A stretch of DNA of 34,039 nucleotides from a virus: positions 1 to 34,039 of IMG/VR virus record IMGVR_UViG_3300045988_147030; one strand, given 5' to 3'. The notes beneath the pieces are model-generated. The model saw only the letters and a program-made list of their open reading frames with translations. It had not been told where the DNA came from and did not search any database. The translations under genes were made by a program, and so were the position numbers. Shown here one piece after another: positions 213 to 30,995 of the stretch. Each line of letters opens with the position of its first letter. Position 1 is the first letter of the stretch.

Positions 213-1442
213 ATGGCAAAGGTATCGTACTATCTCAAAAACGTCAAGGCGGGCGAAGAGGCGCCGCTCTACCTCAAGATCTCGCACGACTACAAAAGCG
301 CCCTGCTGTTGGCCGGCAAGATCCGGCCGGAGGACTGGGATCCGGTGCACCAGACCTTCATTGGCCGGAACACCGGATTCCGCAACCGCCTGAAGAATCT
401 CGCGACGCAGGCGGTGGACATCATCACCGACCTGCGCTACTCCGGAGAACTCGCGACGATGACCGCAAGGGATGTCATCGACCGAATCAAACAAGAGGCT
501 TTCGGCGAAAGGCCCGAAAAGAAGGGCGGGGATTTTCTTGCCGCCCTGAAGGATTACCGCGATTCCTGCTACAAGCCCGGGACGCGCGAAGTGTATGACC
601 GGACGGTCAAGGCGCTCACGGCCTTCGACCCGTCAATAGATGAAAGGTCGTTCGACGACATCAACCGCGCCTATCTTGAGCGGTTCGAGCGCCACTGCAT
701 GGACACGATGGCCATAAACTCCATCTCCATCCTGATGCGCAACATACGGACCGTGTTCAACAAGGCCATCGACGACGGAAAAACCGACGCCTACCCTTTC
801 CGTACCTTCAAAATCAAACAGGAGGAGACAAGGAAGAGGGCGCTGACCGCCGAGCAGCTCGCGTGGATCCTCAACATGGAGCCAAGCCCTGGATATGAGG
901 AGGCAAGGGACATTTTCATGCTGTTGTTCTACCTGATAGGCATCAACCTCGCGGACCTTCTCGCGGCGAAAAAGACCTCCGTGAAAAACGGTTACCTCAA
1001 CTACAGACGTGCCAAGACCGGTCGGCTGTATTCCGTGAAGATCGAGCCGGAGGCGGCCGAACTGATCAGGAAATATTCAGGAAAGACGAATCTCGTGAAC
1101 GGCCTTGAGCGATATGCCACCGAGAACTCCTACCTGTCGAAAATCAACAAGCGCCTGAAATACTTGGGGTGCCCAAGGGGCAAGCGCGGCAAGATCTTAG
1201 AGAAGGGCCGCTTTGCCGATCTGTCAACATATTGGTCCCGCCACACGTGGGCGACCATCGCCTATGAGATTGGCATCCCGGTGGACATAATCGGCCAGGC
1301 TCTTGGGCATTCGGACAAATCGCACGACGTCACATTCATATACATCAAGCGAGACCAGAGCAAGGTTGACGAAGCCAACAGGCGGGTAATCGACTACGTG
1401 CTGTACGGCAAGGACTACCGAAAAGAGAAGCCCCAGCCTTAG
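213..1442 (+). CDS. int: Tyrosine site-specific integrase
   Basis: 409 aa with an ATG start. The C-terminal catalytic region contains SRHTWAT...GH motifs and a tyrosine-containing tail. It is adjacent to the tRNA att site. Confidence 0.9.
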   Translation: MAKVSYYLKNVKAGEEAPLYLKISHDYKSALLLAGKIRPEDWDPVHQTFIGRNTGFRNRLKNLATQAVDIITDLRYSGELATMTARDVIDRIKQEAFGERPEKKGGDFLAALKDYRDSCYKPGTREVYDRTVKALTAFDPSIDERSFDDINRAYLERFERHCMDTMAINSISILMRNIRTVFNKAIDDGKTDAYPFRTFKIKQEETRKRALTAEQLAWILNMEPSPGYEEARDIFMLLFYLIGINLADLLAAKKTSVKNGYLNYRRAKTGRLYSVKIEPEAAELIRKYSGKTNLVNGLERYATENSYLSKINKRLKYLGCPRGKRGKILEKGRFADLSTYWSRHTWATIAYEIGIPVDIIGQALGHSDKSHDVTFIYIKRDQSKVDEANRRVIDYVLYGKDYRKEKPQP

Positions 1443-2529: not shown

Positions 2530-3042
2530 TTAAAGCCTGAGATAGAATCCGCCCGTCACTCCGAGCCCGGCGTTCACCCTGCCGGAAGGGGTTACCAATA
2601 CAGAAGGGCCGACCGCAACCCCGAATCCCCACCTCTTTGCTTCCACGGTGTAGCCTTTTGTGATGATCTTAGTCTGCGGATAGACCTCGACATACTCCAG
2701 CTTCGTCCTGAAGCCGCTGACCCCGATGTCGTAGTTGTCGCCCGTGTAGCGGCTGAATATGATGGGCACCTCGACCTCCACCGTGTCGTGGACAAAGATA
2801 GTATCGGAAGGCTGGACGGCCGCGAGCCGCACCGTGTCAACCCTGACCGTCCTGATTTCTTTCAGAACCGGCCTGTAATCGACGAATGTGTCGCGGATGA
2901 TTAACGTATCCGTCCGCTCGACAACGTGGGCGCAGCGGCCGCTTCTGCCCCCAAGGAAGCCGAGCCCCAAGGCAAGCAGCACCGCCGCCGCGAACACCGC
3001 GGTCGTTTTCGGTCGTTTTCGGTCGTTTTCGGTCGTTGCCAT
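2530..3042 (-). CDS. Membrane-anchored beta-rich protein (possible lysis or outer-membrane accessory protein)
   Basis: The first ATG is at 3042; the track start at 3051 is TTG. An N-terminal TM segment (AVFAAAVLLALGLGFL) is followed by a beta-strand-like C-terminus ending GGFYLRL. Confidence 0.6.
   Translation of the reverse strand: MATTENDRKRPKTTAVFAAAVLLALGLGFLGGRSGRCAHVVERTDTLIIRDTFVDYRPVLKEIRTVRVDTVRLAAVQPSDTIFVHDTVEVEVPIIFSRYTGDNYDIGVSGFRTKLEYVEVYPQTKIITKGYTVEAKRWGFGVAVGPSVLVTPSGRVNAGLGVTGGFYLRL
3001..3037 (-). repeat. 10-nt tandem repeat GGTCGTTTTC, 3.7 copies, inside the 5' coding region
   Basis: Read directly at 3001-3010, 3011-3020, 3021-3030 and partially at 3031-3037. It encodes TTENDRKRPKTT. 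Confidence 0.9.
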
Positions 3043-3268
3043 AAATCTCAATTAAAAGTCCCCCGCGCCTCCCGGCGGGGAGGACAGAAACAAAAAAAAC
3101 TAATACTAAGAGTAACCGCCCCGATTGAGGCCGGGGCGCGGCCTTGTCTTGATCCCCCAAAGTAGGCTTGCATGCAGAGGCAATGGGGGTTATGTCTCAA
3201 AAAACGGAAATCTTCTTGTACTACAACTTGTAGTATAGGACTTATTCGGCGAAATCCACCCTGTGCAG

Positions 3269-3551: not shown

Positions 3552-3965
3552 TCACCGCCTGACCCCTCCAAGCTCATCCGCCCACTTCTCTGTGAAAAAA
3601 GAGTAATAGTCTACCTCCTGCAGTCTTCGGAACGTGGAGTGCGCCCACGCCCAAAGCAGGGACGGAAGCCCTATCACGACAAGATAAAGCCATCCGAGCC
3701 AAGCCGACTGCCTCGTGTGCCCATACTCGTGGCCGATGGTGTCGCGGACGTAGGACGAGCTGTTGTTGCGGTACTTCCGCGGCAGGATGATGAACCTGCC
3801 CAGACTGATGCCGCCCCTCATCCTCTCCGAATAGAGAATGCGCGCGTCACCATAGGGAACTTCCATACAGTCGCAGTCCACGCTGTAAACCTGGAAGAGG
3901 ATGAACCCCAAAAGGTTCTGCGGCAACTCCCACAGAATCCTTAGAAAATCGATGAAACCTTTCAT
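3552..3965 (-). CDS. Small membrane protein with an HExxH motif (zincin-like, DUF3267-like)
   Basis: 137 aa. The motif is GHEYGH. Hydrophobic segments include LLGFILF and WLGWLYLVVIGLPSLLWAW. Confidence 0.55.
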   Translation of the reverse strand: MKGFIDFLRILWELPQNLLGFILFQVYSVDCDCMEVPYGDARILYSERMRGGISLGRFIILPRKYRNNSSSYVRDTIGHEYGHTRQSAWLGWLYLVVIGLPSLLWAWAHSTFRRLQEVDYYSFFTEKWADELGGVRR

Positions 3966-17808: not shown

Positions 17809-19059
17809 TTAGTCGGTCGTTATGTCCACGATGGCCGCGAAGCTCTTAGGCTCGACAACCTTGATATCATTCCATGCGTTCAGGGTGAGATAGATCTCAC
17901 CGTTGCGCGCTCCGGTGTACGGGTCGACAACGATGTCTATTCCACCCCACTGGCCGATATAGAGATCCTGGAAGTTACCGAAGATGAGCGCTGAGCACTT
18001 GGACGCGGCCGTTCCCTTGGTCAAAGTTGACGGAACGAGATTCGTCCAATCAAAAGGATAGCCGTTCAGGGTCTTAGGCGCCTCATTTGACAGCAGGAAG
18101 CGCGCGGTGCCCGCCGCCATCTCTGTGACCTTCAACGCACCGTTAACCTTCGCGTTGGAAAGATAGGCCATCCTGCCGCGGTTGGCGTTCTTGGAGTTAA
18201 CCTCGGTCTCCAGAGCAACGACATTCTTCCACGTTAGCGCGCCACCGTTCGTGCCAATAGCCACACTTCCGATGCCGGAGGTGTTCAGGATTCCGGTAGG
18301 CTCCCCGTCACTTCCGGAGCCGTTGATGGCCGCCTTCTCCAGAAGGTCGGCGTGCGCGTCGGTGATCTTGTTTAACAAATCGGCCTCTACGTCAAAGGAG
18401 GTCTGCCTGAGCAGGTCCTTTGTCGTGGCCACGGACACGGATGACCTGTGCGGGGTCATGGTCAATTTGGAATAGGTCACCTTCTTGAGCTCGTTCTTGT
18501 CAGCCTCGCCTTCCCATGCGGCCTGAACCGCAGAAGAGCTGATGGCCGTGAACGTCCCCACGAGGTCGGTCAGCACGGTCGCTCCCAGACCGGCCACGAC
18601 CAGTTTGTCCCTGAGGATGTCAAGGTAGCGCCTTTCGCCCTCCTCGGTGAGATTGCCGCCATCCGCGGCAGTCGTGTAGTTCTGGCCGCTGGCGGCGCGA
18701 AGATAAGCGGACGGGATGACGTGCCCCTGACGGACCAGTCCCAGACGCTCATACTCTTTCGCTCCCATCTCGTCAACCTCTTTCTCGATGCCCTCCAGAT
18801 TGCCGGAAACAATCCCGGCTATGTAACGCACCAACGAGAACGGCCTTCCGGCCACCCTCTGCCTTCTGTCAAGCTCCCTGTCGGCAGCCTGCTGCGCGGC
18901 GGCCTCCACGGCCTCCGCCTGTTCCAACTCAAGCATCAGAGCCTTGAGCTCCTCGATCCCTTTCTTGAGGGCCTCGGCGTTCTCAGGGCTGTTCTGAATG
19001 CCCTTGACCTCCGCGGCCTTGGCCGCGAGATCCCTTCTGATTTCCGCTATTTTTCTCAT
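17809..19059 (-). CDS. Major capsid protein (HK97 fold)
   Basis: 416 aa with an N-terminal coiled-coil delta-like domain. It follows the prohead protease. Confidence 0.85.
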   Translation of the reverse strand: MRKIAEIRRDLAAKAAEVKGIQNSPENAEALKKGIEELKALMLELEQAEAVEAAAQQAADRELDRRQRVAGRPFSLVRYIAGIVSGNLEGIEKEVDEMGAKEYERLGLVRQGHVIPSAYLRAASGQNYTTAADGGNLTEEGERRYLDILRDKLVVAGLGATVLTDLVGTFTAISSSAVQAAWEGEADKNELKKVTYSKLTMTPHRSSVSVATTKDLLRQTSFDVEADLLNKITDAHADLLEKAAINGSGSDGEPTGILNTSGIGSVAIGTNGGALTWKNVVALETEVNSKNANRGRMAYLSNAKVNGALKVTEMAAGTARFLLSNEAPKTLNGYPFDWTNLVPSTLTKGTAASKCSALIFGNFQDLYIGQWGGIDIVVDPYTGARNGEIYLTLNAWNDIKVVEPKSFAAIVDITTD

Positions 19060-20983: not shown

Positions 20984-21199
20984 CTATCTGCGATATTCCC
21001 TGGAATGCCTGAAAGTGTCATACGACACGAAGCGCGGCTCCCCGAACTCGGCCACGAACAGACCGTTCAGGAAATCGAACACCTCGCGCCTCGAAGTCGT
21101 CTGTTTCACAGCCCGGCGGCGGCGCAGCTCCGCCCAGAACTCCTTGGCGAAGCCGTCTCTCGTGACCATCCGCCAGACCCTTTCGTCAATCTCTCTCAT
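20984..21199 (-). CDS. Hypothetical protein (71 aa)
   Basis: The ATG at 21199 forms an ATGA overlap with the TerL stop codon. Confidence 0.5.
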   Translation of the reverse strand: MREIDERVWRMVTRDGFAKEFWAELRRRRAVKQTTSRREVFDFLNGLFVAEFGEPRFVSYDTFRHSREYRR

Positions 21200-22851
21200 A
21201 TCACCCTTAAATCGTGGTTTGAATATATTATTTTGCTTTCCTGCCCCGCCGTTTCGTTCAACCATCCTCCTATCGCGTCCACGGTAGCCACAACCCCGTC
21301 AATCTTGTTCCTCGACCTTGCCTTGTCAAGCTTTATATTTGCGTTCGGATCCCGGTACACCACAACGTTTCGGAACATCCACCGGATGACTGGATTTCCC
21401 AAGAGATCCAGCTCGTGACGCAAGACCGCAGCCTCCAGCCACTTTGTCGGCACGGACATATAGCGGATGTTCTGCTGATACTCCATCAGGCGGTCGCAAT
21501 ACCGCCCGAACTTCGGCAGTATGTTCCAGATAGCCCACGGGTCATAAGCTATCTTTTTGACATCATACAAGTCCATCCAAGAGATCAGCGTCTGAATGTA
21601 CCAGTCCTCGTCCAACGTCTTGCCGGGCGTGACGACAAGCCAGCCCTGGTCCCTCCACTGCCGGTAGTCCACACGGTCGGACATCTCGGCCACCTTGGAC
21701 TCCGGAACGCAGAAAAGATAACGCACGGCCTTGAAGGACGGGAACCAGAAGGCCGCCGCCGTGATGTCATTCTTTGAAGCTAGATCCAATCCCACATAGC
21801 ACTCCTTCCCGAGAAGGACGGACGGGTCAAGCCCCTTGCCGTTGGCGGTCACATCATCATCGCTTATCCAGACCTCCGGAGCGTCCACCCACATATTCAG
21901 GTTCTTCGTACAGAAGGCCGCAAGAGTGCTTCCGCCCTTCTTCTTCGCCTCCTGAAACTCGTTCTCCATATACTCCGGGTAAAGAGACACCCCGTAATTC
22001 GGATTCACCTTGCGCCAGACCTCCGGATCGTCCCATCTGTCACCATCGTCTGGCTCAAAGAGCATTATGAAGTGGTTGTCCTTCTCCTGGACCCCGCTCA
22101 TCACGTCCCTGAGAAACTCCAGATCTCGGAAATACGGATAACTGGTGTCCACGCCAGCCGTGGATATAGAGAACACAAGCGGCTGCCTCCTCGAGCCGAT
22201 ACCCGTCTTGATTACATCATAGATCTCGTTAGTCTTCCATGCGTGCCGCTCATCGCAGATGGCGGCCTGCGGGTTCAAGCCGTCCTTGTTCTTAGTGTCC
22301 TTTGTCAGCGGCTTGAATGATGACGCAGTCGGGATGCTGGTGATGCTCCCGCGGTACACATCGGCGATCTCCGACAATCCGCTGTGACGAAGTAATTCCT
22401 TCGCCGTGTCGAAGCATATCTTGGCCTGTTCCTTGTCGACGGCGGCGGCGTACACCTCGGCGGCCGGCTCTCCGTCAAAAAGAAGCATATAAAGGGCGAT
22501 TATGGCCGCGAATGTGGTCTTGCCGTTCTTTCTTGGCACATATACATCGGCGTACTGATAGCGGCGGCGCTTGGTCGCCGAACGATACCAGCCGAACACA
22601 TTCGCAGCCACAAAGAGCTGCCAGTCCTCCAGCCTTATGCCCTTTCCCGCAAATTCCCCCTTGAAATGCTTCAACGTCTGAGCGAAACGGACGAAACGCA
22701 GGAATTTAGACTCGTCAAAGTACAGATCAGCCCTTTTCTTGTCATTCTCGTACCTCTCACAGGCGAGCCGCACCATCCGGCAGGACGGAACAGCCCCGGA
22801 CACTATGTCCGCGGCATACCGATCCACCCTTTCCAGATACCTACTGCTCAT
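21196..22851 (-). CDS. terL: Terminase large subunit
   Basis: The first ATG is at 22851; the track start at 22860 is GTG. It has a Walker A-like PRKNGKTT motif and a C-terminal nuclease region. Confidence 0.9.
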   Translation of the reverse strand: MSSRYLERVDRYAADIVSGAVPSCRMVRLACERYENDKKRADLYFDESKFLRFVRFAQTLKHFKGEFAGKGIRLEDWQLFVAANVFGWYRSATKRRRYQYADVYVPRKNGKTTFAAIIALYMLLFDGEPAAEVYAAAVDKEQAKICFDTAKELLRHSGLSEIADVYRGSITSIPTASSFKPLTKDTKNKDGLNPQAAICDERHAWKTNEIYDVIKTGIGSRRQPLVFSISTAGVDTSYPYFRDLEFLRDVMSGVQEKDNHFIMLFEPDDGDRWDDPEVWRKVNPNYGVSLYPEYMENEFQEAKKKGGSTLAAFCTKNLNMWVDAPEVWISDDDVTANGKGLDPSVLLGKECYVGLDLASKNDITAAAFWFPSFKAVRYLFCVPESKVAEMSDRVDYRQWRDQGWLVVTPGKTLDEDWYIQTLISWMDLYDVKKIAYDPWAIWNILPKFGRYCDRLMEYQQNIRYMSVPTKWLEAAVLRHELDLLGNPVIRWMFRNVVVYRDPNANIKLDKARSRNKIDGVVATVDAIGGWLNETAGQESKIIYSNHDLRVI

Positions 22852-23374
22852 CAGGCTCACCTCCCCCCATTATCAGGTTGATGATCTTGGCGGACGGGTC
22901 CTCGCCCTCGACCCTCGCCTTTATCCTCTGGCGGTCAACCGGCGAAAGCCCGAAGTTCGACCCGATCTTGGCAACGTGGTTGAAAAATCTGTCCATATGC
23001 CGTACGGACGGGTTCTCGACGGTGCCGCACACATTGCCGGCCTCGTCGCGCTTGACAGTATACATCCCGTTCTTCTCGACATCCGCCGCCGCCGTCATAT
23101 ACATATCGAACTCCTTAGCGAACATCACCAGCTCCGGGAGGTACGCCTGCTCCAGAATCCCCAGCGGTATGAGCTGTCGGCAGACCGACAGATATATCTT
23201 CCTTTGCCGCTCCGTCAGAAGCCTGTAAGACATCGTCCCGCACGCGGCCTGGATGCTGCCGACCTTCCGGCCTTCCAGATCACCGTCATTCTTGCGCCTG
23301 CAAGCCTGATAAGTGCCCTTTAACTTAGCGAGTTGCGCTGGCTGTTTTTTGCGTCCGCTTCCATTACCTCCCAT
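22841..23374 (-). CDS. terS: Terminase small subunit (P27-like)
   Basis: 177 aa with N-terminal GGNGSGRKKQP. It lies directly upstream of terL. Confidence 0.8.
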   Translation of the reverse strand: MGGNGSGRKKQPAQLAKLKGTYQACRRKNDGDLEGRKVGSIQAACGTMSYRLLTERQRKIYLSVCRQLIPLGILEQAYLPELVMFAKEFDMYMTAAADVEKNGMYTVKRDEAGNVCGTVENPSVRHMDRFFNHVAKIGSNFGLSPVDRQRIKARVEGEDPSAKIINLIMGGGEPDEQ

Positions 23375-24545: not shown

Positions 24546-24974
24546 CTAATTAAACCGACCGAACACCAGCATCGCCGCATCCCTCGAATGCTCGGTAGTC
24601 CTTCCGTTGTAGCCGGTCACGGCGGCGAAACTGTCACGCGTCCACTTTGTCGCCCCCTTCAACGGGGCCACCAACTGGAACGGAATATTCATTCTTGAAA
24701 GGAAGTCCTCCCAGATCTTGGCGTCCCTCTTTACAGAACCGGCGCCAAGCCGCCGCGCCATCTCCTTGCGTACATCGTGCGTGTCCGGCACCCATTTTCT
24801 CAACCTCGCATCCTCAACGACGACGCAGATGTCCTGATATTCCGCCACAAGACCAAGCACACGGAATATAGCCTCATCTATCGTCACAGTGTCCAGCGAA
24901 AGCAGCTCCCTCTTCTTTGAGTCCCACACGGCCATCCCTGTGTTGACCCCCGTGTCTATACCAACCCAAATCAT
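24546..24974 (-). CDS. RuvC-like Holliday junction resolvase
   Basis: Starts MIWVGIDTG and contains EHSRDAAML, in 142 aa. Confidence 0.75.
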   Translation of the reverse strand: MIWVGIDTGVNTGMAVWDSKKRELLSLDTVTIDEAIFRVLGLVAEYQDICVVVEDARLRKWVPDTHDVRKEMARRLGAGSVKRDAKIWEDFLSRMNIPFQLVAPLKGATKWTRDSFAAVTGYNGRTTEHSRDAAMLVFGRFN

Positions 24975-26911: not shown

Positions 26912-27250
26912 TCAATCTCCTGACGGCCTCCATGTCACGAACAGCCCCACGGCCCCCTTTGCTCCGAACATCCAGTCGTCTGCCGACCTCACCGGCTCGG
27001 ACGGGGCGGACGAAAGCCGCGCCGCCTTGGAGCCGGCCCCCCTCCAGTGCGACTTGGACGCGCAGCTACAGCTGGTGGACTTCCCTATCCTCAGCGATCT
27101 GGCGAACACCACGCGTTCCGTTCCGCAGTCACACCTGCAATGGCAAGCCGTGAGGGCGCGGGTGGTTGTCTTCTTTCTCGTCATTCCCAAAACTGTCCAC
27201 AGACCGAACCTCTGCCCGGTCATGTCACCGAATTCCTTACGCTTCTCCAT
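26912..27250 (-). CDS. Hypothetical protein with a Cys-cluster (CHCRCDCG...SCSC)
   Basis: 112 aa with the N-terminal motif GQRFGLWTVLG. Confidence 0.55.
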   Translation of the reverse strand: MEKRKEFGDMTGQRFGLWTVLGMTRKKTTTRALTACHCRCDCGTERVVFARSLRIGKSTSCSCASKSHWRGAGSKAARLSSAPSEPVRSADDWMFGAKGAVGLFVTWRPSGD

Positions 27251-27705: not shown

Positions 27706-28350
27706 TTATAATTTCATACCGTAAACATTGGCGACCTTCTTGATGACATCACGACCATAATCGTCCTTGGTCTGCTCAAAGAATGTACGCAATGTGATGC
27801 TGTCGGTCGGCTTGTAGCCGTGCTCCTCGCACCAGTTGCGTCTTCCAAATTCGCAGGAGCCAGTGAGGATGTGATGCCACCGGTACAGATCGGAATATTC
27901 GTCATCCAAGGACGGGTGCATATTCACAAACTCAGCTATCCTCTCGCCAAGCGGACGGTTCTCTTTCCACTTGGCATACACAGCCTTGACGGCATCGCGC
28001 AGCGTGTCACCGTGGGCGAAGAAGTTGCCGCGCTTGGCGATCCAGCAGTCTTTCAGCGTCAAGTCCTTTTGAAGCACCGCGCCTTTCGCCACGTTGCAGC
28101 GGACGGCATAGATGAGAGTTGGAACATTATCAACATCATAGACCTTGCGGCCGTTGAACTCATTGATGCCGTAACCGTCACCGGAACCGTCACCGGAACC
28201 GTCACCGTAACCGGAACCGGAACCGTCACCGTAACCGGAACCGTCACCGTCACCGTCACCGTCACCGTAACCGGAACCGGAACCGTCACCGTAACCGGAA
28301 CCGGAACTTACGGCCAGAAACCGCTCAATATCTTTCCCTATCGCTTCCAT
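27706..28350 (-). CDS. Hypothetical protein with an N-terminal (GSGYGD)n low-complexity repeat
   Basis: The ATG is at 28350; the track start at 28392 is TTG. A 47-aa G/S/Y/D repeat is followed by a globular C-terminal domain. Confidence 0.6.
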   Translation of the reverse strand: MEAIGKDIERFLAVSSGSGYGDGSGSGYGDGDGDGDGSGYGDGSGSGYGDGSGDGSGDGYGINEFNGRKVYDVDNVPTLIYAVRCNVAKGAVLQKDLTLKDCWIAKRGNFFAHGDTLRDAVKAVYAKWKENRPLGERIAEFVNMHPSLDDEYSDLYRWHHILTGSCEFGRRNWCEEHGYKPTDSITLRTFFEQTKDDYGRDVIKKVANVYGMKL

Positions 28351-28643
28351 TCCTTCTTCGCTTCGATGTTCTCTATCGCCTTGCTGGTGCAAGGAATAAT
28401 CTGAATGGCGTTCGCAGCCACCAACTCAGGCACGGCCACGGTTATCTTGCTGTCGTCGTTGCAACCGTCCTGTGAAAGCTGCTCAACAGCAGCGGCACCA
28501 TCCCAGTACCACACCTTACGGGCATTAGCCAGACGCACGTTCAGCCCGTTGGCATAGCTGCTTACTTCCTTGACCTCACCGAAGAACACCCCGGCACCAT
28601 AGCATCTTACGATGCACTTCTTTCCGATGTAACTTTTCATCAT
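28338..28643 (-). CDS. Hypothetical protein (101 aa)
   Basis: ATGATG start; it is the first gene after the ORF-free island. Confidence 0.6.
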   Translation of the reverse strand: MMKSYIGKKCIVRCYGAGVFFGEVKEVSSYANGLNVRLANARKVWYWDGAAAVEQLSQDGCNDDSKITVAVPELVAANAIQIIPCTSKAIENIEAKKEWKR

Positions 28644-28677
28644 TTTAGAATCATTAAAAATTAAACAATAAACTTGA

Positions 28678-28781
28678 TGCTGAGCGCGGACTCGAACCGA
28701 CCTTTGTCAAAATCATCGAAACACTGTGTTTTTGGTATAGCTACGTATTCCCTTCGTCCCCGTGGACGCTTTTTCTCAGCA
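28678..28781 (-). ncRNA. tRNA-like module C (104 nt): closing helix plus a degenerate T-arm, no anticodon arm
   Basis: 7-bp closing helix UGCUGAG/CUCAGCA. T-loop UUCGAGU with only a 3-bp stem. Internal hairpin CGUCC-ACGG-GGACG. Confidence 0.35.
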
Positions 28782-28850
28782 TTGTTCGCGACTCACGCCG
28801 CTACTGGTTGGAAGGTAACTCCTGGGCCACCTTGGTTGCTTGCGAGCTTT

Positions 28851-28906
28851 GGGGGATGGGAAGGAATCGAACCTTCTGGCCGCAGCCAACCCGATGCTCC
28901 ATCCCC
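28851..28906 (-). ncRNA. tRNA-like module B (56 nt): acceptor/T-arm minihelix
   Basis: 8-bp helix GGGGAUGG/CCAUCCCC. Perfect T-arm GAAGG-UUCGAUU-CCUUC directly abuts the 3' strand. Only 22 nt lie in between. Confidence 0.45.
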
Positions 28907-28959
28907 TTTTCCGTCGGTTTTCTCAGGACCTCAAGAAAGTCTGCCAAGACTTTGAGCGG

Positions 28960-29041
28960 CTCCCCGGAACGGACTCGAACCGCACTGCCGTCCTACGTTT
29001 ATGATCCTGCCGGAAGCGTCCCAATTCCGGCCTTCGGGGAG
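28960..29041 (-). ncRNA. tRNA-like module A (82 nt): closing helix, 7-bp hairpin and T-loop-like element
   Basis: 7-bp closing helix CUCCCCG/CGGGGAG. Hairpin GCCGGAA-N9-UUCCGGC. T-like element GCGG-UUCGAGU-CCGU. Confidence 0.4.
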
Positions 29042-29266
29042 TTTACCTCTGACGGACTTCACAGCCGGCCTTCGGAGAAAAACCACATAATTAATAACAC
29101 TAAAACTAATAACCTATGAGCCGCGATAAGACCCGCGCGGCACGGGGTTGCTTCATACTTGCTTCGTTATTTCTCTTTCTTTGGCCGTTTCCTCGCCCTC
29201 TCACGAATTTTAATCCGCAAAACAAGGGTTTTCCAATCCCGGTCCACAAAACACCGCCAAAACGCC

Positions 29267-29494
29267 TTATTTCGCCTTGCCGTCCTCAACCGGCCTTATC
29301 CACCAGTCATTGAGCGTCCTCCCGACCTCTATCCGCCCCGCTCTCCTCAGCTCCGCGATGGACTCCAGAAGAGCCTTCTCCGTCATCCCTTTGCCTTTCG
29401 CCCACCTTTTCAGGTTCAGAAGGGTCTCGTGGCATGGCAGCGCGTTCCTCGACCTCAACACGGCCACACGCCGCCTTATCTCCTCAAGAACCAT
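29267..29494 (-). CDS. Hypothetical small protein (possible winged-helix)
   Basis: 75 aa with an ATG start; it overlaps the loader gene by 11 nt. Confidence 0.55.
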   Translation of the reverse strand: MVLEEIRRRVAVLRSRNALPCHETLLNLKRWAKGKGMTEKALLESIAELRRAGRIEVGRTLNDWWIRPVEDGKAK

Positions 29495-30200
29495 TTCCGC
29501 TCACCCTCATATCGTCACCCACAAGCTCCACGTAGTTGCACATACTGTGCAGCCTCGACCACACCCTGTCGCCGTAGATCTTCCTGATGGAGGCAAGGCT
29601 GTAGTTGCTCGTGATGATGGTGAACCGCCCCGGCGTGTCGCCCCTCAGCTCAAGAAACTCCCGCATCACCTCATGGCGATTGCCCATATACAGCGTCTCC
29701 CTAGGCTCGGAGCCCAAGTCCTGTATGCTCACCACCTTCATCGACTGGAAGAACGACAAAGAGCCCTGCTGGGCGTAATGGTCGCAGATCATAGCCGCCG
29801 TGGAGTCCGTCCACCTCATAAGGTTCGATTCGTTGCCCCAAGCGAACCTCGCGGCCATCTGGGAGGCCATCGTCTGGACTATCCTCACAGCCGTCGTCTT
29901 GCCGCTCCCCGGGTTGCCCGCCACGAACAGTCCTTTGCACGGATCGCCTTCAACCTCAACGCCCGTATCCGGGTCATTGCACCTGAACGGAAGGTTCGCC
30001 GCCCACGCCGCCAGAGCCGCGTAAGCCTTGGCGCGCCCTTCCGTCACCCTGAACCCCGGAACCATAGCCCGCGCCACCCCATCGAAGAGCCACCACGCGG
30101 CCTCGAACGAGAAGCCCGAGTCGCTCCGCCTTATCTCCGGGAACTGCCCAGCCGCCTTGAGGTCGGCCACAATCTTGTCGATGTACTGCTTCGTTATCAT
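29484..30200 (-). CDS. DnaC/IstB-like AAA+ ATPase (helicase loader)
   Basis: Walker A motif GNPGSGKT. It lies downstream of the replication initiator. Confidence 0.75.
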   Translation of the reverse strand: MITKQYIDKIVADLKAAGQFPEIRRSDSGFSFEAAWWLFDGVARAMVPGFRVTEGRAKAYAALAAWAANLPFRCNDPDTGVEVEGDPCKGLFVAGNPGSGKTTAVRIVQTMASQMAARFAWGNESNLMRWTDSTAAMICDHYAQQGSLSFFQSMKVVSIQDLGSEPRETLYMGNRHEVMREFLELRGDTPGRFTIITSNYSLASIRKIYGDRVWSRLHSMCNYVELVGDDMRVSGNGS

Positions 30201-30263: not shown

Positions 30264-30995
30264 CTAAAAGTCACCCCGGTTCTTCCAGTCCGAAGTCGCG
30301 TCCTTGAATTGGCTCTCGCTGTTCCCCGCCGTCTTGGCCGCGGCCCTCGAAGCGTCGATGTCGATCCAGAGCTTCGCCTTTGCGTACAGTGAGAAGTACG
30401 GGTCGCCCTCCGCCCTTATCGCCTCGCTCCCCGCTATCCTGTCCCTGCTGAAGCCCACCGCCTCCCTCTCCATGCTCGACACATAGAACAGGCCGACCTC
30501 ATCTTTGGAGGGTACCGGGGGGCTGGGGGGCTGGGGGGTGGCCTGAGGCGGTCTCTCAGAGCCGCCCTCGTGCGTGCACACGTGCGCGTCACACGCGCTT
30601 GTGATGTTTTTTTTATTATCTTTTCTTATAGGGATAGGGGGTGTGGGGGAAAGGGGTGTCATTTTGACACCACTTTGCGCTATTTTGACACTGGTGTCGT
30701 TTTGACACTGGTGTCGTTTTGACACCACCTCCAAGTTAAGGGAATATTCATTCTGCTCGCCAGCCTTGCGCCCTACGGTCAAAAGCCCCATTTTCTCGAG
30801 TTTTGAAAGTACACGAATAGCATTGCGCTTATTTACGCAGCACCTTCTCTGGAAATACGGCAGCGACGCGTGGCATGTGTGCATCCCGTCCTGCGTGAAC
30901 CCGTAGATGACCGCCACCGCGATCACCTCGGACAGGTTCAGCCCCAGGTCGAACATCCAGTCCTGAATCAGGACAAAAGGTCTGATCTCAGCCAT
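30264..30995 (-). CDS. Replication initiator / replisome organiser with an N-terminal winged-helix domain
   Basis: 243 aa. Iterons are embedded in the linker-coding part, and a Pro-rich linker is present. Confidence 0.6.
   Translation of the reverse strand: MAEIRPFVLIQDWMFDLGLNLSEVIAVAVIYGFTQDGMHTCHASLPYFQRRCCVNKRNAIRVLSKLEKMGLLTVGRKAGEQNEYSLNLEVVSKRHQCQNDTSVKIAQSGVKMTPLSPTPPIPIRKDNKKNITSACDAHVCTHEGGSERPPQATPQPPSPPVPSKDEVGLFYVSSMEREAVGFSRDRIAGSEAIRAEGDPYFSLYAKAKLWIDIDASRAAAKTAGNSESQFKDATSDWKNRGDF
30656..30725. promoter_or_regulatory. Candidate replication origin iterons GTGTC(A/G)TTTTGACAC
   Basis: Full copies at 30656-30670, 30694-30708 and 30711-30725, plus a half-site at 30682-30691. They are flanked by an AT-rich tract (30606-30630) and a G-rich tract (30631-30655). 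Confidence 0.55.

What the first reader, a model, noticed from the sequence alone, without database searches (positions are those of the whole stretch)
28644..29266. 623-nt ORF-free island with three tRNA-like acceptor/T-arm modules that lack anticodon arms
In an otherwise gap-free operon this interval has no convincing ORF on the transcribed (minus) strand. It does contain three modules. Each is closed by a perfect 7-8 bp helix whose 3' strand follows, directly in module B and with one spacer nucleotide in A, a T-arm-like hairpin with loop UUCGAGU or UUCGAUU.
- Module A (28960-29041, 82 nt): closing helix CUCCCCG/CGGGGAG plus a 7-bp hairpin.
- Module B (28851-28906, 56 nt): closing helix GGGGAUGG/CCAUCCCC with a perfect T-arm GAAGG-UUCGAUU-CCUUC and only 22 nt in between.
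- Module C (28678-28781, 104 nt): closing helix UGCUGAG/CUCAGCA.

None can fold into a cloverleaf with an anticodon stem. A CCGAAGGCCGG motif is duplicated at 29030-29040 and 29066-29076. The architecture recalls the tRNA-like domains of tmRNA and YrlA/Y RNAs, and tRNA-like processing elements recognised by RNase P, RNase Z or the CCA-adding enzyme. The modules could be parts of one large structured phage RNA, processing signals between early and late transcripts, decoys for tRNA-targeting defences, or decayed remnants of a phage tRNA cluster.
Basis: partly seen in the sequence, partly recalled or inferred. Interest (0 to 1): 0.75.

Follow-up and report, generated by a model that had tools for sequence, protein, structure and literature searches.

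The report
Phage array of anticodon-less tRNA mimics
A gene-free stretch of this gut-bacterial prophage encodes three small RNAs that keep the upper half of a tRNA but cannot read codons; related phages preserve their folds, so they are working parts of unknown function, not dead tRNA genes.

Summary
Window 28644-29266 has no credible ORF. On the minus strand it carries three tRNA-like modules at the stated coordinates. The T-loop motif GGTTCGANTCC occurs three times in the 34 kb window, all in this island (0.11 expected). ARAGORN and Rfam call no tRNA, tmRNA, YrlA, ROOL or GOLLD, here or in relatives; only module B gives a sub-threshold tRNA-Sec match.

About 25 related phage and metagenome loci show compensatory base changes in every helix:
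- A: 14 of 30 pairs.
- B: 5 of 17 pairs.
- C: 8 of 17 pairs.

No shuffle of 500 reached the observed paired fraction. These are therefore selected RNA structures, not decayed tRNA genes.

The modules are independent cassettes. C occurs alone, A+C occurs without B, and A occurs alone upstream of a Mu-like transposase. A C-like copy starts directly after the CCA of tRNA-Asp inside a jumbo-phage tRNA array. In relatives, A has a fourth, non-anticodon arm that the window copy has lost.

Best reading: these are non-decoding tRNA mimics, with the anticodon arm replaced by other sequence. They are probably excised by host tRNA-processing enzymes; that step is inferred, not shown. Function is unknown. 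The closest precedent is T4 RNAC/RNAD. I rate it a new variant of a known kind.

The parts
29121..29148 (-). GC-rich hairpin region (ACCCCGUGCCGCGCGGGU / GCCGCG...CGCGGC) at the 5' edge of the conserved cassette. It may be the end of the upstream transcript.
   Evidence: Sequence. The cassette starts here in loci whose upstream gene differs (L025, L129). It is 96% identical to L011. Its function is inferred.
29081..29120 (-). AT-rich, promoter-like segment (UUAUUAGUUUUAGUGUUAUUAAUUAUGUGG).
   Evidence: It is conserved with the cassette in L011, L025 and L129. No sigma-70 match lies at this position. A Bacteroidetes-type promoter is only an inference.
29042..29080 (-). Leader. It contains a partial duplicate (CUCCGAAGGCCGG) of the 5' end of module A.
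   Evidence: Repeat D3; conserved in relatives. Its structure is unresolved.
28960..29041 (-). Module A. Acceptor stem of 7 bp, then AA, a D-like arm (7 bp in the window), a degenerate centre, conserved AGGACGGCAG, and a 6-bp T stem with loop UUCGAGU. The discriminator is C28959.
   Evidence: 95% of cells paired and 14 of 30 pairs with compensatory change. All 6 D-stem pairs and 3 of 6 T-stem pairs covary. The window copy lacks the central arm and has a U-U mismatch in the T stem.
28930..28956 (-). Hairpin h1 (CUCAA-AGUCU-UGGC-AGACU-UUC-UUGAG), following module A.
   Evidence: Seen by eye; conserved in L001, L002, L005, L011, L025 and L028. Not formally tested.
28851..28906 (-). Module B. Acceptor stem of 8 bp, a 10-nt GG-containing linker, a 4-bp hairpin UGGC-UGCG-GCCA, a 5-bp T stem with loop UUCGAUU, and discriminator C28851.
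   Evidence: 100% of cells paired in 5 variants, with 5 compensatory pairs. Weak tRNA-Sec match at 26 bits.
28812..28833 (-). Hairpin h3 (AAGGU-GGCCCAGGAGU-UACCUU) with a conserved loop.
   Evidence: 91% of cells paired but little variation. L011 and L086 keep a hairpin in a shifted register.
28788..28801 (-). Hairpin h4 (GCGGC-GUGA-GUCGC), capped by a GNRA-type loop, immediately 5' of module C.
   Evidence: 100% of cells paired, with 2 pairs showing several compensatory types.
28676..28782 (-). Module C. Acceptor stem of 8 bp, a 5-nt linker, and a D-like hairpin (6-bp stem in the family, 5 bp scored; 4-nt loop ACGG). About 50 nt of A/C-rich unpaired centre follow (GGGAAUACGU...AAAAACACA...AAAGG). 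The T arm has loop UUCGAGU; its stem is 4 bp in the family and 3 bp here. One unpaired G precedes the acceptor 3' strand, and the discriminator is C28676.
   Evidence: 97.8% of cells paired and 8 of 17 pairs compensatory. Covariance model R1 scores it at 97.8 bits.
28644..28675 (-). AT-rich 5' leader of the downstream DUF6948 gene (AAGUUUAUUGUUUAAUUUUUAAUGAUUCUAAA).
   Evidence: 96-97% identical in L011, L005 and L001. The AAGUUUAU motif follows module C in almost every context, but not in L006, where an insertion follows directly.
29149..29266 (-). Conserved non-coding block downstream of the 75-aa ORF, with GUUUUG(C/U)GG repeats. It is probably not part of the tRNA-like cassette.
   Evidence: (repeat D8). 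It travels with the upstream gene, and is absent where the cassette has other neighbours.

Best explanation
The island is a small operon-like array of tRNA-derived, non-decoding tRNA mimics, read from the minus strand.

Anatomy. Each module keeps the upper half of a tRNA: an acceptor stem stacked on a T arm with the canonical GGUUCGAnUCC loop. It also keeps a D-like hairpin or loop, usually with GG, that can build the tRNA elbow. The anticodon arm is replaced by a non-anticodon 'cargo':
- A: a variable hairpin in relatives, lost in the window copy.
- B: a 4-bp hairpin.
- C: about 50 nt of A/C-rich unpaired RNA.

Inferred mechanism. The array is transcribed either with the early-to-late transcript or from its own AT-rich promoter-like segment. 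Host tRNA-maturation enzymes recognise the acceptor/T/elbow shape: RNase P cuts at the 5' end, and RNase Z or exonucleases trim the 3' end before CCA addition. This would release discrete, stable 56-110 nt RNAs. The same cuts would sever the polycistronic RNA just upstream of the next ORF. The arrangement resembles a natural version of the 'tRNA scaffold' used to express recombinant RNAs.

Status of each step.
- Shown: the structures, their covariation, their strand, their modularity and their exact boundaries.
- Inferred: transcription, processing and stability.
- Unknown: what the released RNAs do.
For: - T-loop motif: 3 hits, all in the island on one strand, against 0.11 expected.
- Compensatory changes in every helix. 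C has 8 of 17 pairs, with 97.8% of cells paired against 35-50% when partners are slid. A has 14 of 30 pairs. B has 5 of 17. Hairpin h4 has 2 of 5.
- G-U pairs are frequent. They would be A-C mismatches on the other strand, so the structure is RNA from the minus strand.
- D-like loop residues C21, G22 and G23 of module C are invariant.
- Modules behave as independent units whose homology begins and ends at the acceptor-stem ends. Breakpoints between relatives fall at module ends. C occurs alone in L007, L010, L012 and L015. A+C occurs without B in L002, L025 and L028. A occurs alone, 12 nt upstream of a MuA-like transposase, in L127, L128, L130 and L134.
- A C-like element in a 436-kb phage contig starts immediately after the encoded CCA of tRNA-Asp, inside an array of 10 tRNAs. 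A covariance model built without that element recovers it at 27.7 bits, E about 8e-4. That is the context expected of an RNase P substrate.
- No terminator-like site follows the modules on the minus strand, and ORFs start 12-45 nt after A or C in several contexts.
- The non-coding cassette is about as conserved as the flanking genes. It is 100% identical in 5 metagenome contigs from different samples.
- Precedent: T4 RNAC and RNAD are small stable RNAs from the T4 tRNA cluster with unknown roles (PMC3014915, PMC9697503). T4 rnaC ends with a perfect CCGGG-UUCGAAU-CCCGG T arm.
Against: - There are no expression or end-mapping data, so transcription, RNase P/Z cleavage, CCA addition and stability are all inferred.
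- CCA is not encoded. The residues after the discriminator are CGC, AAA and AAG.
- The acceptor/T stack has 13 layers rather than the canonical 12 (7+6 in A, 8+5 in B, 8+1+4 in C). This could shift or weaken RNase P cleavage.
- The +1 residue is C in A and A in the window's C, neither typical of tRNA.
- The window's own copies are the weakest of the family. A has lost its central arm and has a U-U mismatch. C's T stem is 3 bp. Hairpin h2 is degenerate.
- Folding energies of A and C do not differ from shuffles.
- The sequence set is small and closely related: 5-16 distinct sequences per module, with an effective number of 1.34 for the model. Shuffle statistics therefore overstate independence.
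Confidence: 0.55

Rival explanations
1. Purely cis-acting 'punctuation' or 5'-UTR elements. As with t-elements in plant mitochondria, the tRNA-like folds would exist only so that RNase P/Z cut the polycistronic RNA and set the 5' end or stability of the downstream mRNA. The released pieces would have no function of their own.
For: A or C lies 12-45 nt upstream of an ORF in every context seen: DUF6948, other ORFs in L025 and L028, the MuA-like transposase in L127, and an ORF in the jumbo phage. The 33-nt leader after C is 96-97% conserved. t-elements define mRNA ends in Arabidopsis mitochondria (PMC1920247).
Against: Up to three modules sit in tandem with no ORF between them, where a single cut would suffice. 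Each module type keeps its own specific non-stem sequences across unrelated phages: A's AGGACGGCAG and its arm loop ACGC..AAAACACA, and C's GGGAAUACGU...AAAAACACA. The C-like copy sits inside a tRNA array, abutting tRNA-Asp.
Confidence: 0.2
2. Decoys or sponges. The mimics would soak up host factors that act on the acceptor/T half of tRNA, such as defence toxins that modify or cleave the acceptor end, or enzymes such as RNase P or the CCA-adding enzyme.
For: Only the acceptor/T/elbow half is preserved while decoding is abolished. The modules move between unrelated temperate phages like accessory 'moron' genes. The idea that phages carry tRNAs to counter tRNA-targeting defences rests on my general knowledge and was not checked here.
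Against: There is no linked defence or anti-defence gene. Most known tRNA-targeting defences cut anticodon loops, which these RNAs lack. The literature search found no precedent. A decoy would not need conserved cargo.
Confidence: 0.12
3. Decaying pseudogenes of a former phage tRNA cluster, drifting neutrally.
For: The sequences are clearly tRNA-derived. The window copy carries lesions: a deleted arm in A, a U-U mismatch, and a 3-bp T stem in C. Folding z-scores are weak.
Against: Compensatory double changes keep 95-100% of cells paired in every helix. No relative has a callable tRNA at these positions: ARAGORN calls none in the 16 close relatives or in the other cassette-bearing loci scanned. 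The same anticodon-less architecture recurs in Mu-like and jumbo phages. Conservation equals that of the flanking genes.
Confidence: 0.05
4. One large multi-domain structured RNA of about 480 nt, in the manner of ROOL or GOLLD, in which the three T loops and the GNRA hairpin make long-range tertiary contacts.
For: Several conserved hairpins lie between the modules. These include a GNRA-capped hairpin next to C and the conserved h3 loop. T loops and GNRA loops are common tertiary-contact motifs (general knowledge).
Against: Modules are present or absent independently. Rfam finds no ROOL or GOLLD match even at E<=10. No long-range covarying helix was seen.
Confidence: 0.05
5. Aminoacylatable minihelix or tmRNA-like RNAs. 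The modules would be charged, for example by HisRS because of the 8-bp acceptor stem with discriminator C. They would then feed ribosome rescue or a non-ribosomal aminoacyl-transfer reaction.
For: B and C have 8-bp acceptor stems followed by C, as in tRNA-His and tRNA-Sec. The same T-arm motif hit five tRNA-His genes in a genome-collection scan. The jumbo-phage C-like copy lies near a HisRS-like ORF. C has a tmRNA-like topology: a tRNA-like domain around an unpaired centre.
Against: There is no G3-U70 pair. No reading frame or stop codon is conserved in C's centre (my reading). ARAGORN's tmRNA search is negative. The first pair of C is A-U in the window, L002/L011/L025/L028 and the jumbo-phage copy rather than G-C. 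CCA is not encoded.
Confidence: 0.03

Closest known systems
Phage T4 RNAC (species 1) and RNAD (species 2), small stable RNAs of the T4 tRNA gene cluster
   Same: They are phage-encoded small non-decoding RNAs associated with tRNA genes. T4 rnaC ends in a perfect tRNA T arm. Their roles are still unknown (PMC3014915, PMC9697503). The jumbo-phage C-like copy likewise sits in a tRNA array.
   Different: There is no detectable sequence or model similarity: model R1 gives no hit on the T4 region. In the window no real tRNA genes are present. The three modules here have clean acceptor closures and D-like arms. The hosts are Bacteroidales, and the phages are temperate.
t-elements and the tRNA punctuation model (plant and animal mitochondria)
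   Same: They are tRNA-like acceptor/T-arm structures without a decoding function, embedded in polycistronic transcripts next to ORFs. They are thought to be cut by RNase P and RNase Z (PMC1920247).
   Different: They are organellar, not phage. Here the elements stand in tandem without intervening ORFs, carry conserved cargo, and are exchanged between phages. Processing is untested.
tRNA-Sec / tRNA-His architecture
   Same: B has an 8-bp acceptor stem and a 5-bp T stem. C has an 8-bp acceptor stem and a D-like arm with a 6-bp stem and 4-nt loop. B is the only module with any Rfam match, to tRNA-Sec at 26 bits.
   Different: There is no anticodon arm and no UCA or GUG anticodon. The score is far below the 47-bit gathering cutoff.
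tmRNA tRNA-like domain; bacterial Y RNA (YrlA)
   Same: They have a T arm plus acceptor-like helix and no anticodon. Like tmRNA, C encloses an unpaired internal segment.
   Different: There is no G3-U70 pair, tag ORF or pseudoknots. No ARAGORN or Rfam hit was found. In YrlA the termini form the Ro-binding stem rather than the acceptor stem, and none of the 20 window ORFs scanned matched an Rsr/Ro60 family.
Viral and cellular tRNA-like processing modules (MHV68 TMER vtRNAs, MALAT1 mascRNA) and the engineered 'tRNA scaffold'
   Same: A tRNA-shaped unit recruits RNase P/Z to release or stabilise an attached RNA, and it is not used for decoding. This comparison rests on my general knowledge.
   Different: These are eukaryotic or engineered systems. 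No homology is implied, and the comparison is one of mechanism only.

Membership tests
canonical tRNA | Cloverleaf with a 5-bp anticodon stem and a 7-nt anticodon loop | tested here: not met
   ARAGORN genes in the window, the 16 close relatives and the other cassette-bearing loci scanned. The Rfam tRNA model gives no hit at E<=10. RNAalifold finds no such arm in C. A's central arm has 3-18 nt loops of variable length.
canonical tRNA | Acceptor stem stacked on a T arm with a UUCRANY T loop | tested here: met
   The stack has 13 layers (7+6, 8+5, 8+1+4) instead of 12.
canonical tRNA | 3' CCA end and aminoacylation | not testable with these tools
   CCA is not encoded. Addition and charging need experiments.
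tRNA-Sec (RF01852) | Score at or above the Rfam gathering threshold, with a UCA anticodon arm | tested here: not met
   B scores 25-26 bits against 47. The D and anticodon arms are deleted in the alignment.
tmRNA | tRNA-like domain with the G3-U70 alanine identity pair | tested here: not met
   Acceptor pairs are listed. None has G3-U70; A has U3-G70 or C3-G70.
tmRNA | Internal tag-peptide reading frame with a resume codon and stop, plus pseudoknots | tested here: not met
   No frame or stop is conserved across C variants (my reading). The ARAGORN tmRNA search is negative.
YrlA / bacterial Y RNA | Termini form the Ro (Rsr)-binding stem; the tRNA-like domain is internal; an rsr gene is linked | tested here: not met
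   The termini form the acceptor stem. No Rfam hit at E<=10. None of the 20 window ORFs scanned, which include the flanking genes, matched an Rsr/Ro60 family; the remaining ORFs were not scanned.
ROOL / GOLLD large phage-associated RNAs | Match to the Rfam covariance models; a single large obligate fold | tested here: not met
   No hit. The modules occur independently.
t-element-like processing signal | tRNA-like acceptor/T structure within a polycistronic transcript, adjacent to an ORF | tested here: met
   ORFs start 12-45 nt after A or C, and no terminator-like site follows.
t-element-like processing signal | Cleavage by RNase P and RNase Z at the structure's ends | not testable with these tools
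   This needs end mapping or in vitro cleavage.
T4 RNAC/RNAD-type stable RNAs | Non-tRNA small RNA gene located within a phage tRNA array | tested here: inconclusive
   Met for the jumbo-phage C-like copy. Not met in the window, which has no tRNA genes. No sequence similarity to T4 rnaC or rnaD.

The most novel reading that the evidence does not exclude
Modules A, B and C would be founding members of an undescribed class of phage 'tRNA-scaffolded' small RNAs. A tRNA upper half, with an unusual 13-layer acceptor/T stack that may keep it off EF-Tu and the ribosome, would serve as a processing and stability chassis. The segment replacing the anticodon arm would be a trans-acting effector, either a regulator or a decoy. 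A's arm loop and C's centre share an ACGY...AAAACACA motif that could be that effector. These units would be traded as cassettes among lambdoid-like, Mu-like and jumbo phages.
Probability: 0.3. Interest if true: 0.8.

Novelty: new variant of a known kind. Interest (0 to 1): 0.6.

Why it matters
Phage tRNA genes are usually explained by codon usage or by escape from tRNA-cleaving defences. Here selection maintains tRNA shape while decoding is impossible, so some other property of the tRNA fold is being used: processing, stability, or binding to tRNA-handling proteins.

- The T4 RNAC/RNAD problem has been open for decades. These modules offer a second, comparative system with clear covariation, several module types and natural presence/absence variants.
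- If the RNAs are processed and stable, they are a natural counterpart of the engineered tRNA scaffold. They would also be a possible route to small-RNA biology in Bacteroidales phages, whose RNA regulators are poorly known.
- Annotation pipelines leave this region blank, or extend ORFs through it.

Tried and rejected
1. Linkage to the downstream DUF6948 protein. C sits just upstream of it in all 16 close relatives, and a distant homologue has a tRNA-Arg 75 nt away. However, 73 diverse DUF6948 loci contain 0 tRNAs and only one T-loop motif. C also occurs with other downstream genes. Rejected.
2. tmRNA. There is no conserved tag frame, no G3-U70 pair and no ARAGORN hit. Rejected.
3. A base-pairing target for the shared AAAACACA motif. 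The only UGUGUUUU on the transcribed strand would have to be elsewhere, since the window has none apart from the motif's own complement. A 6-7 nt match to the upstream non-coding block (repeat I2) does not travel with the modules. Unresolved.
4. Alternative pairing of the h3 loop (GCCCAGGAG) with C's 3' acceptor strand. It does not covary in the window or in L011. Dropped.
5. Similarity to cultured phages. blastn of 28300-29600 against 50,697 phage records found no match.
6. Replication origin or att site at the DNA level for the modules. G-U pairs and strand-specific covariation argue for RNA. The upstream block 29149-29266 was not resolved.
7. A DnaC-like protein search to find relatives gave nothing.
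8. Literature searches found no description of this family. The csRNA catalogue of PMC10690425 could not be checked because no supplements are held.
9. Many of the 90 hits of the genome-collection scan for C's T arm are compatible with chance, given about 17 expected for uniform base composition and more in GC-rich genomes; seven overlap ARAGORN-called tRNAs, five of them tRNA-His. Only L069 (Bacteroidales) and L086 are family members.
Full report
**Context.** The window is a temperate siphovirus-like prophage read mostly on the minus strand. It has an integrase at 213-1442 (+), large and small terminase subunits at 21196-23374, and a major head protein at 17809-19059. A RusA-like resolvase lies at 24546-24974 and an HNH endonuclease at 26912-27250. 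Upstream of the island are a replication-initiator-like gene (30264-30995), a DnaC-like loader (29484-30200) and a 75-aa ORF (29267-29494). Downstream is a 101-aa DUF6948 protein (28338-28643). The island therefore sits at the boundary between the replication module and a nin-like region. GC content of about 55% and a related Bacteroidales MAG contig (L069) suggest a Bacteroidales host.

**Checking the observation.**
- The T-loop motif GGTTCGANTCC occurs exactly three times in 34 kb. All three are on the minus strand inside the island, against 0.11 expected; none of 100 shuffles reached three.
- The duplicated CCGGCCTTCGG motif is real.
- Only 33-51 aa ORFs lie on the transcribed strand. Independent gene calls on metagenome contigs carrying an identical copy leave the same 623-nt gap.
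- ARAGORN finds no tRNA or tmRNA, and Rfam finds nothing at gathering thresholds. At E<=10, only module B matches tRNA-Sec, at 26 bits against a 47-bit cutoff, with the D and anticodon arms deleted in the alignment.
- Single-sequence folding is unremarkable for A and C (z -0.64 and -1.18) and modest for B (z -2.0). The case must rest on comparison.

**Relatives.** The DUF6948 protein and DNA patterns from the modules retrieved about 25 distinct related loci from IMG/VR, two genome-collection contigs and several metagenome contigs. ARAGORN calls no tRNA in the 16 close relatives or in the other cassette-bearing loci I scanned, and Rfam at gathering thresholds finds nothing in those 16. A full cassette with the long form of A again gives only the weak tRNA-Sec hit for B, and nothing for tRNA, tmRNA, YrlA, ROOL or GOLLD.

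**Structure and covariation of module C** (16 sequences).
- It has an 8-bp acceptor stem, a 5-nt linker, and a 6-bp stem with the 4-nt loop ACGG, whose C, G, G residues are invariant.
- About 50 nt follow with no conserved pairing but with conserved GGGAAUACGU, AAAAACACA and AAAGG.
- The T stem GCGG/CCGC has a UUCGAnU loop. One unpaired G precedes the acceptor 3' strand, which is followed by C.
- 97.8% of cells pair, against 35-50% when partners are slid. 8 of 17 pairs show compensatory double changes. No shuffle of 500 reaches the observed values. RNAalifold independently returns essentially the same structure and finds no anticodon-like arm.

**Structure and covariation of module A** (15 sequences).
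- It has a 7-bp acceptor stem, then AA, and a D-like arm in which all six pairs covary.
- A central arm varies from absent (the window), through a 3-6 bp hairpin, to a 3+8 bp stem with a 14-18 nt loop (ACGCCC..AAAACACA).
- Conserved AGGACGGCAG follows, then a 6-bp T stem that abuts the acceptor strand.
- 95.1% of cells pair and 14 of 30 pairs are compensatory.

**Structure and covariation of module B** (5 variants). It has an 8-bp acceptor stem, a GG-containing linker, a 4-bp hairpin and a 5-bp T stem. 100% of cells pair and 5 pairs are compensatory.

**Other structural points.**
- A GNRA-capped hairpin (h4) just 5' of C also covaries. Hairpins h1 and h3 are conserved but vary too little to test.
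- Frequent G-U pairs place the structure in RNA of the minus strand.
- All three modules have 13 stacked layers in the acceptor/T helix, against 12 in ordinary tRNA and 13 in tRNA-Sec and tRNA-His. I record this as an observation only.

**Modularity.**
- Alignment breakpoints between relatives fall at module ends.
- B is present only in the window, L001, L005, L011 and L069.
- L002, L025 and L028 have A+C. L007, L010, L012 and L015 have only h2-h4 plus C, after a different upstream gene.
- L006 has an insertion of about 870 nt exactly after C.
- In L127, L128, L130 and L134, module A stands alone, 12 nt upstream of a 692-aa rve-domain (MuA-like) protein followed by an AAA_22 (MuB-like) protein. 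That is a Mu-like phage. Homology to the window family starts and stops at the acceptor-stem ends.
- In a 436-kb phage contig (L019/L032), a C-like element begins immediately after the encoded CCA of tRNA-Asp inside an array of ten tRNAs. An ORF starts 20 nt after it.
- A covariance model built without that sequence finds it full-length at 27.7 bits (E about 8e-4, rough). It also weakly matches module A of the Mu-like phages (about 20 bits), which suggests A and C share ancestry.
- The unit of inheritance and selection is thus the tRNA-like module itself. This argues against one obligate large RNA.

**Conservation.** Against L011, L005 and L001, the non-coding cassette is 66-98% identical. That is comparable with the flanking coding regions at 61-86%. 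The window's exact 623 nt occur in five metagenome contigs from different samples. The window's copies are nonetheless the most eroded of the family. A has lost its central arm and has a U-U mismatch. C's T stem is reduced to 3 bp, and h2 is degenerate.

**Interpretation.**
- Shown: three tRNA-derived RNA structures under purifying selection that cannot decode.
- Inferred: because they keep precisely the parts of tRNA recognised by RNase P, RNase Z and the CCA-adding enzyme, they are excised like tRNAs. Those parts are the acceptor/T minihelix and the elbow. One family member lies in a tRNA array directly abutting a tRNA 3' end, and family boundaries coincide with acceptor ends. Excision would release stable small RNAs and cut the polycistronic RNA upstream of the next ORF.
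- Unknown: whether the released RNAs act in trans. The conserved cargo, with an ACGY...AAAACACA motif shared by A's arm loop and C's centre, hints that they do. I found no target for it.

**Rivals.** These are pure punctuation (0.2), decoy or sponge (0.12), pseudogenes (0.05), one large RNA (0.05) and a chargeable minihelix or tmRNA-like RNA (0.03).

**Comparison with known systems.**
- The nearest precedent is T4 RNAC/RNAD, small RNAs from the T4 tRNA region with unknown roles (PMC3014915, PMC9697503). The T4 record shows rnaC ending in a perfect T arm. There is no sequence or model similarity to the modules here.
- Plant-mitochondrial t-elements (PMC1920247) are the nearest mechanistic analogue.
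- A 2023 survey predicted thousands of structured RNAs in IMG/VR, including 'tRNA-like' ones (PMC10690425). I could not check whether these modules are among them.
- Nothing in Rfam 15 matches.

**Leads that failed.** The apparent link between DUF6948 and tRNA-like genes does not generalise: 0 of 73 diverse loci have a tRNA. The tmRNA, YrlA, ROOL and GOLLD readings fail their defining tests. The cassette has no match among cultured phages.

**Verdict.** This is a conserved, modular array of anticodon-less tRNA mimics, a new variant of a known kind, with an inferred processing mechanism and an open function.

Noticed in passing
window 29149-29266 (minus strand); also L086 6640-6740: A conserved non-coding block lies between the 75-aa ORF and the cassette. 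It has GUUUUG(C/U)GG repeats (TCCGCAAAACA / TCCACAAAACA, 29 nt apart) and is kept even in the divergent, GC-rich relative L086. It could be a protein-binding site, an origin element or a 3' UTR.
   Followed up: partly
L019 27-117 and L032 821-911 (minus strand), IMG/VR contigs of 436 kb (3300034073_003340) and 40 kb (3300034072_000973): A module-C-like RNA directly abuts the CCA end of tRNA-Asp within a 10-tRNA array. It lies downstream of a truncated HisRS-like ORF, and an ORF of about 135 aa starts 20 nt after it.
   Followed up: partly
L127 1405-1515 (also L128, L130, L134): Module A occurs alone, 12 nt upstream of a MuA-like rve transposase followed by a MuB-like AAA_22 ATPase. The same tRNA mimic therefore lives in Mu-like phages.
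   Followed up: partly
L006 3110-3976: An insertion of about 870 nt, carrying a PAPS-reductase-like ORF, lies exactly between the 3' end of module C and the DUF6948 gene.
   Followed up: no
L132 about 530-620, 1470-1560 and 2000-2060 (96-kb IMG/VR contig 3300017963_000220): An unrelated phage has three small T-arm-bearing elements, two of them near-duplicates with a CGGCAG motif before the T stem. Each sits just upstream of an ORF with a Shine-Dalgarno site. ARAGORN does not call them tRNAs.
   Followed up: no
L135 about 3060-3135 and L136 about 2940-3015: A near-canonical tRNA-like gene starts directly after a stop codon. It has a CCCAUAA loop (CAU anticodon with C33) and an A1-A72 mismatch. 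ARAGORN does not call it.
   Followed up: no
Proteins P0002, P0003, P0007 and others: Some public gene calls extend the DUF6948 ORF from 101 aa to about 170 aa, probably upstream toward the non-coding region (not checked). These are likely annotation artefacts.
   Followed up: no
IMG/VR: DUF6948 is very common in gut phages, with at least 576 confirmed matches, and it has invariant R, W, Q and PC residues. It shows no general link to tRNA genes. Its function is unknown.
   Followed up: partly
L223 1909-2047 (T4 rnaC): The annotated T4 species 1 RNA ends with a perfect CCGGG-UUCGAAU-CCCGG T arm 9 nt from its 3' end, but its termini pair only imperfectly.
   Followed up: partly
L216 about 3650-3690: An isolated T-arm-like hairpin (GUUGG-UUCGAGU-CCAAC) lies in a DUF6948-bearing phage locus with no tRNA call.
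   Followed up: no
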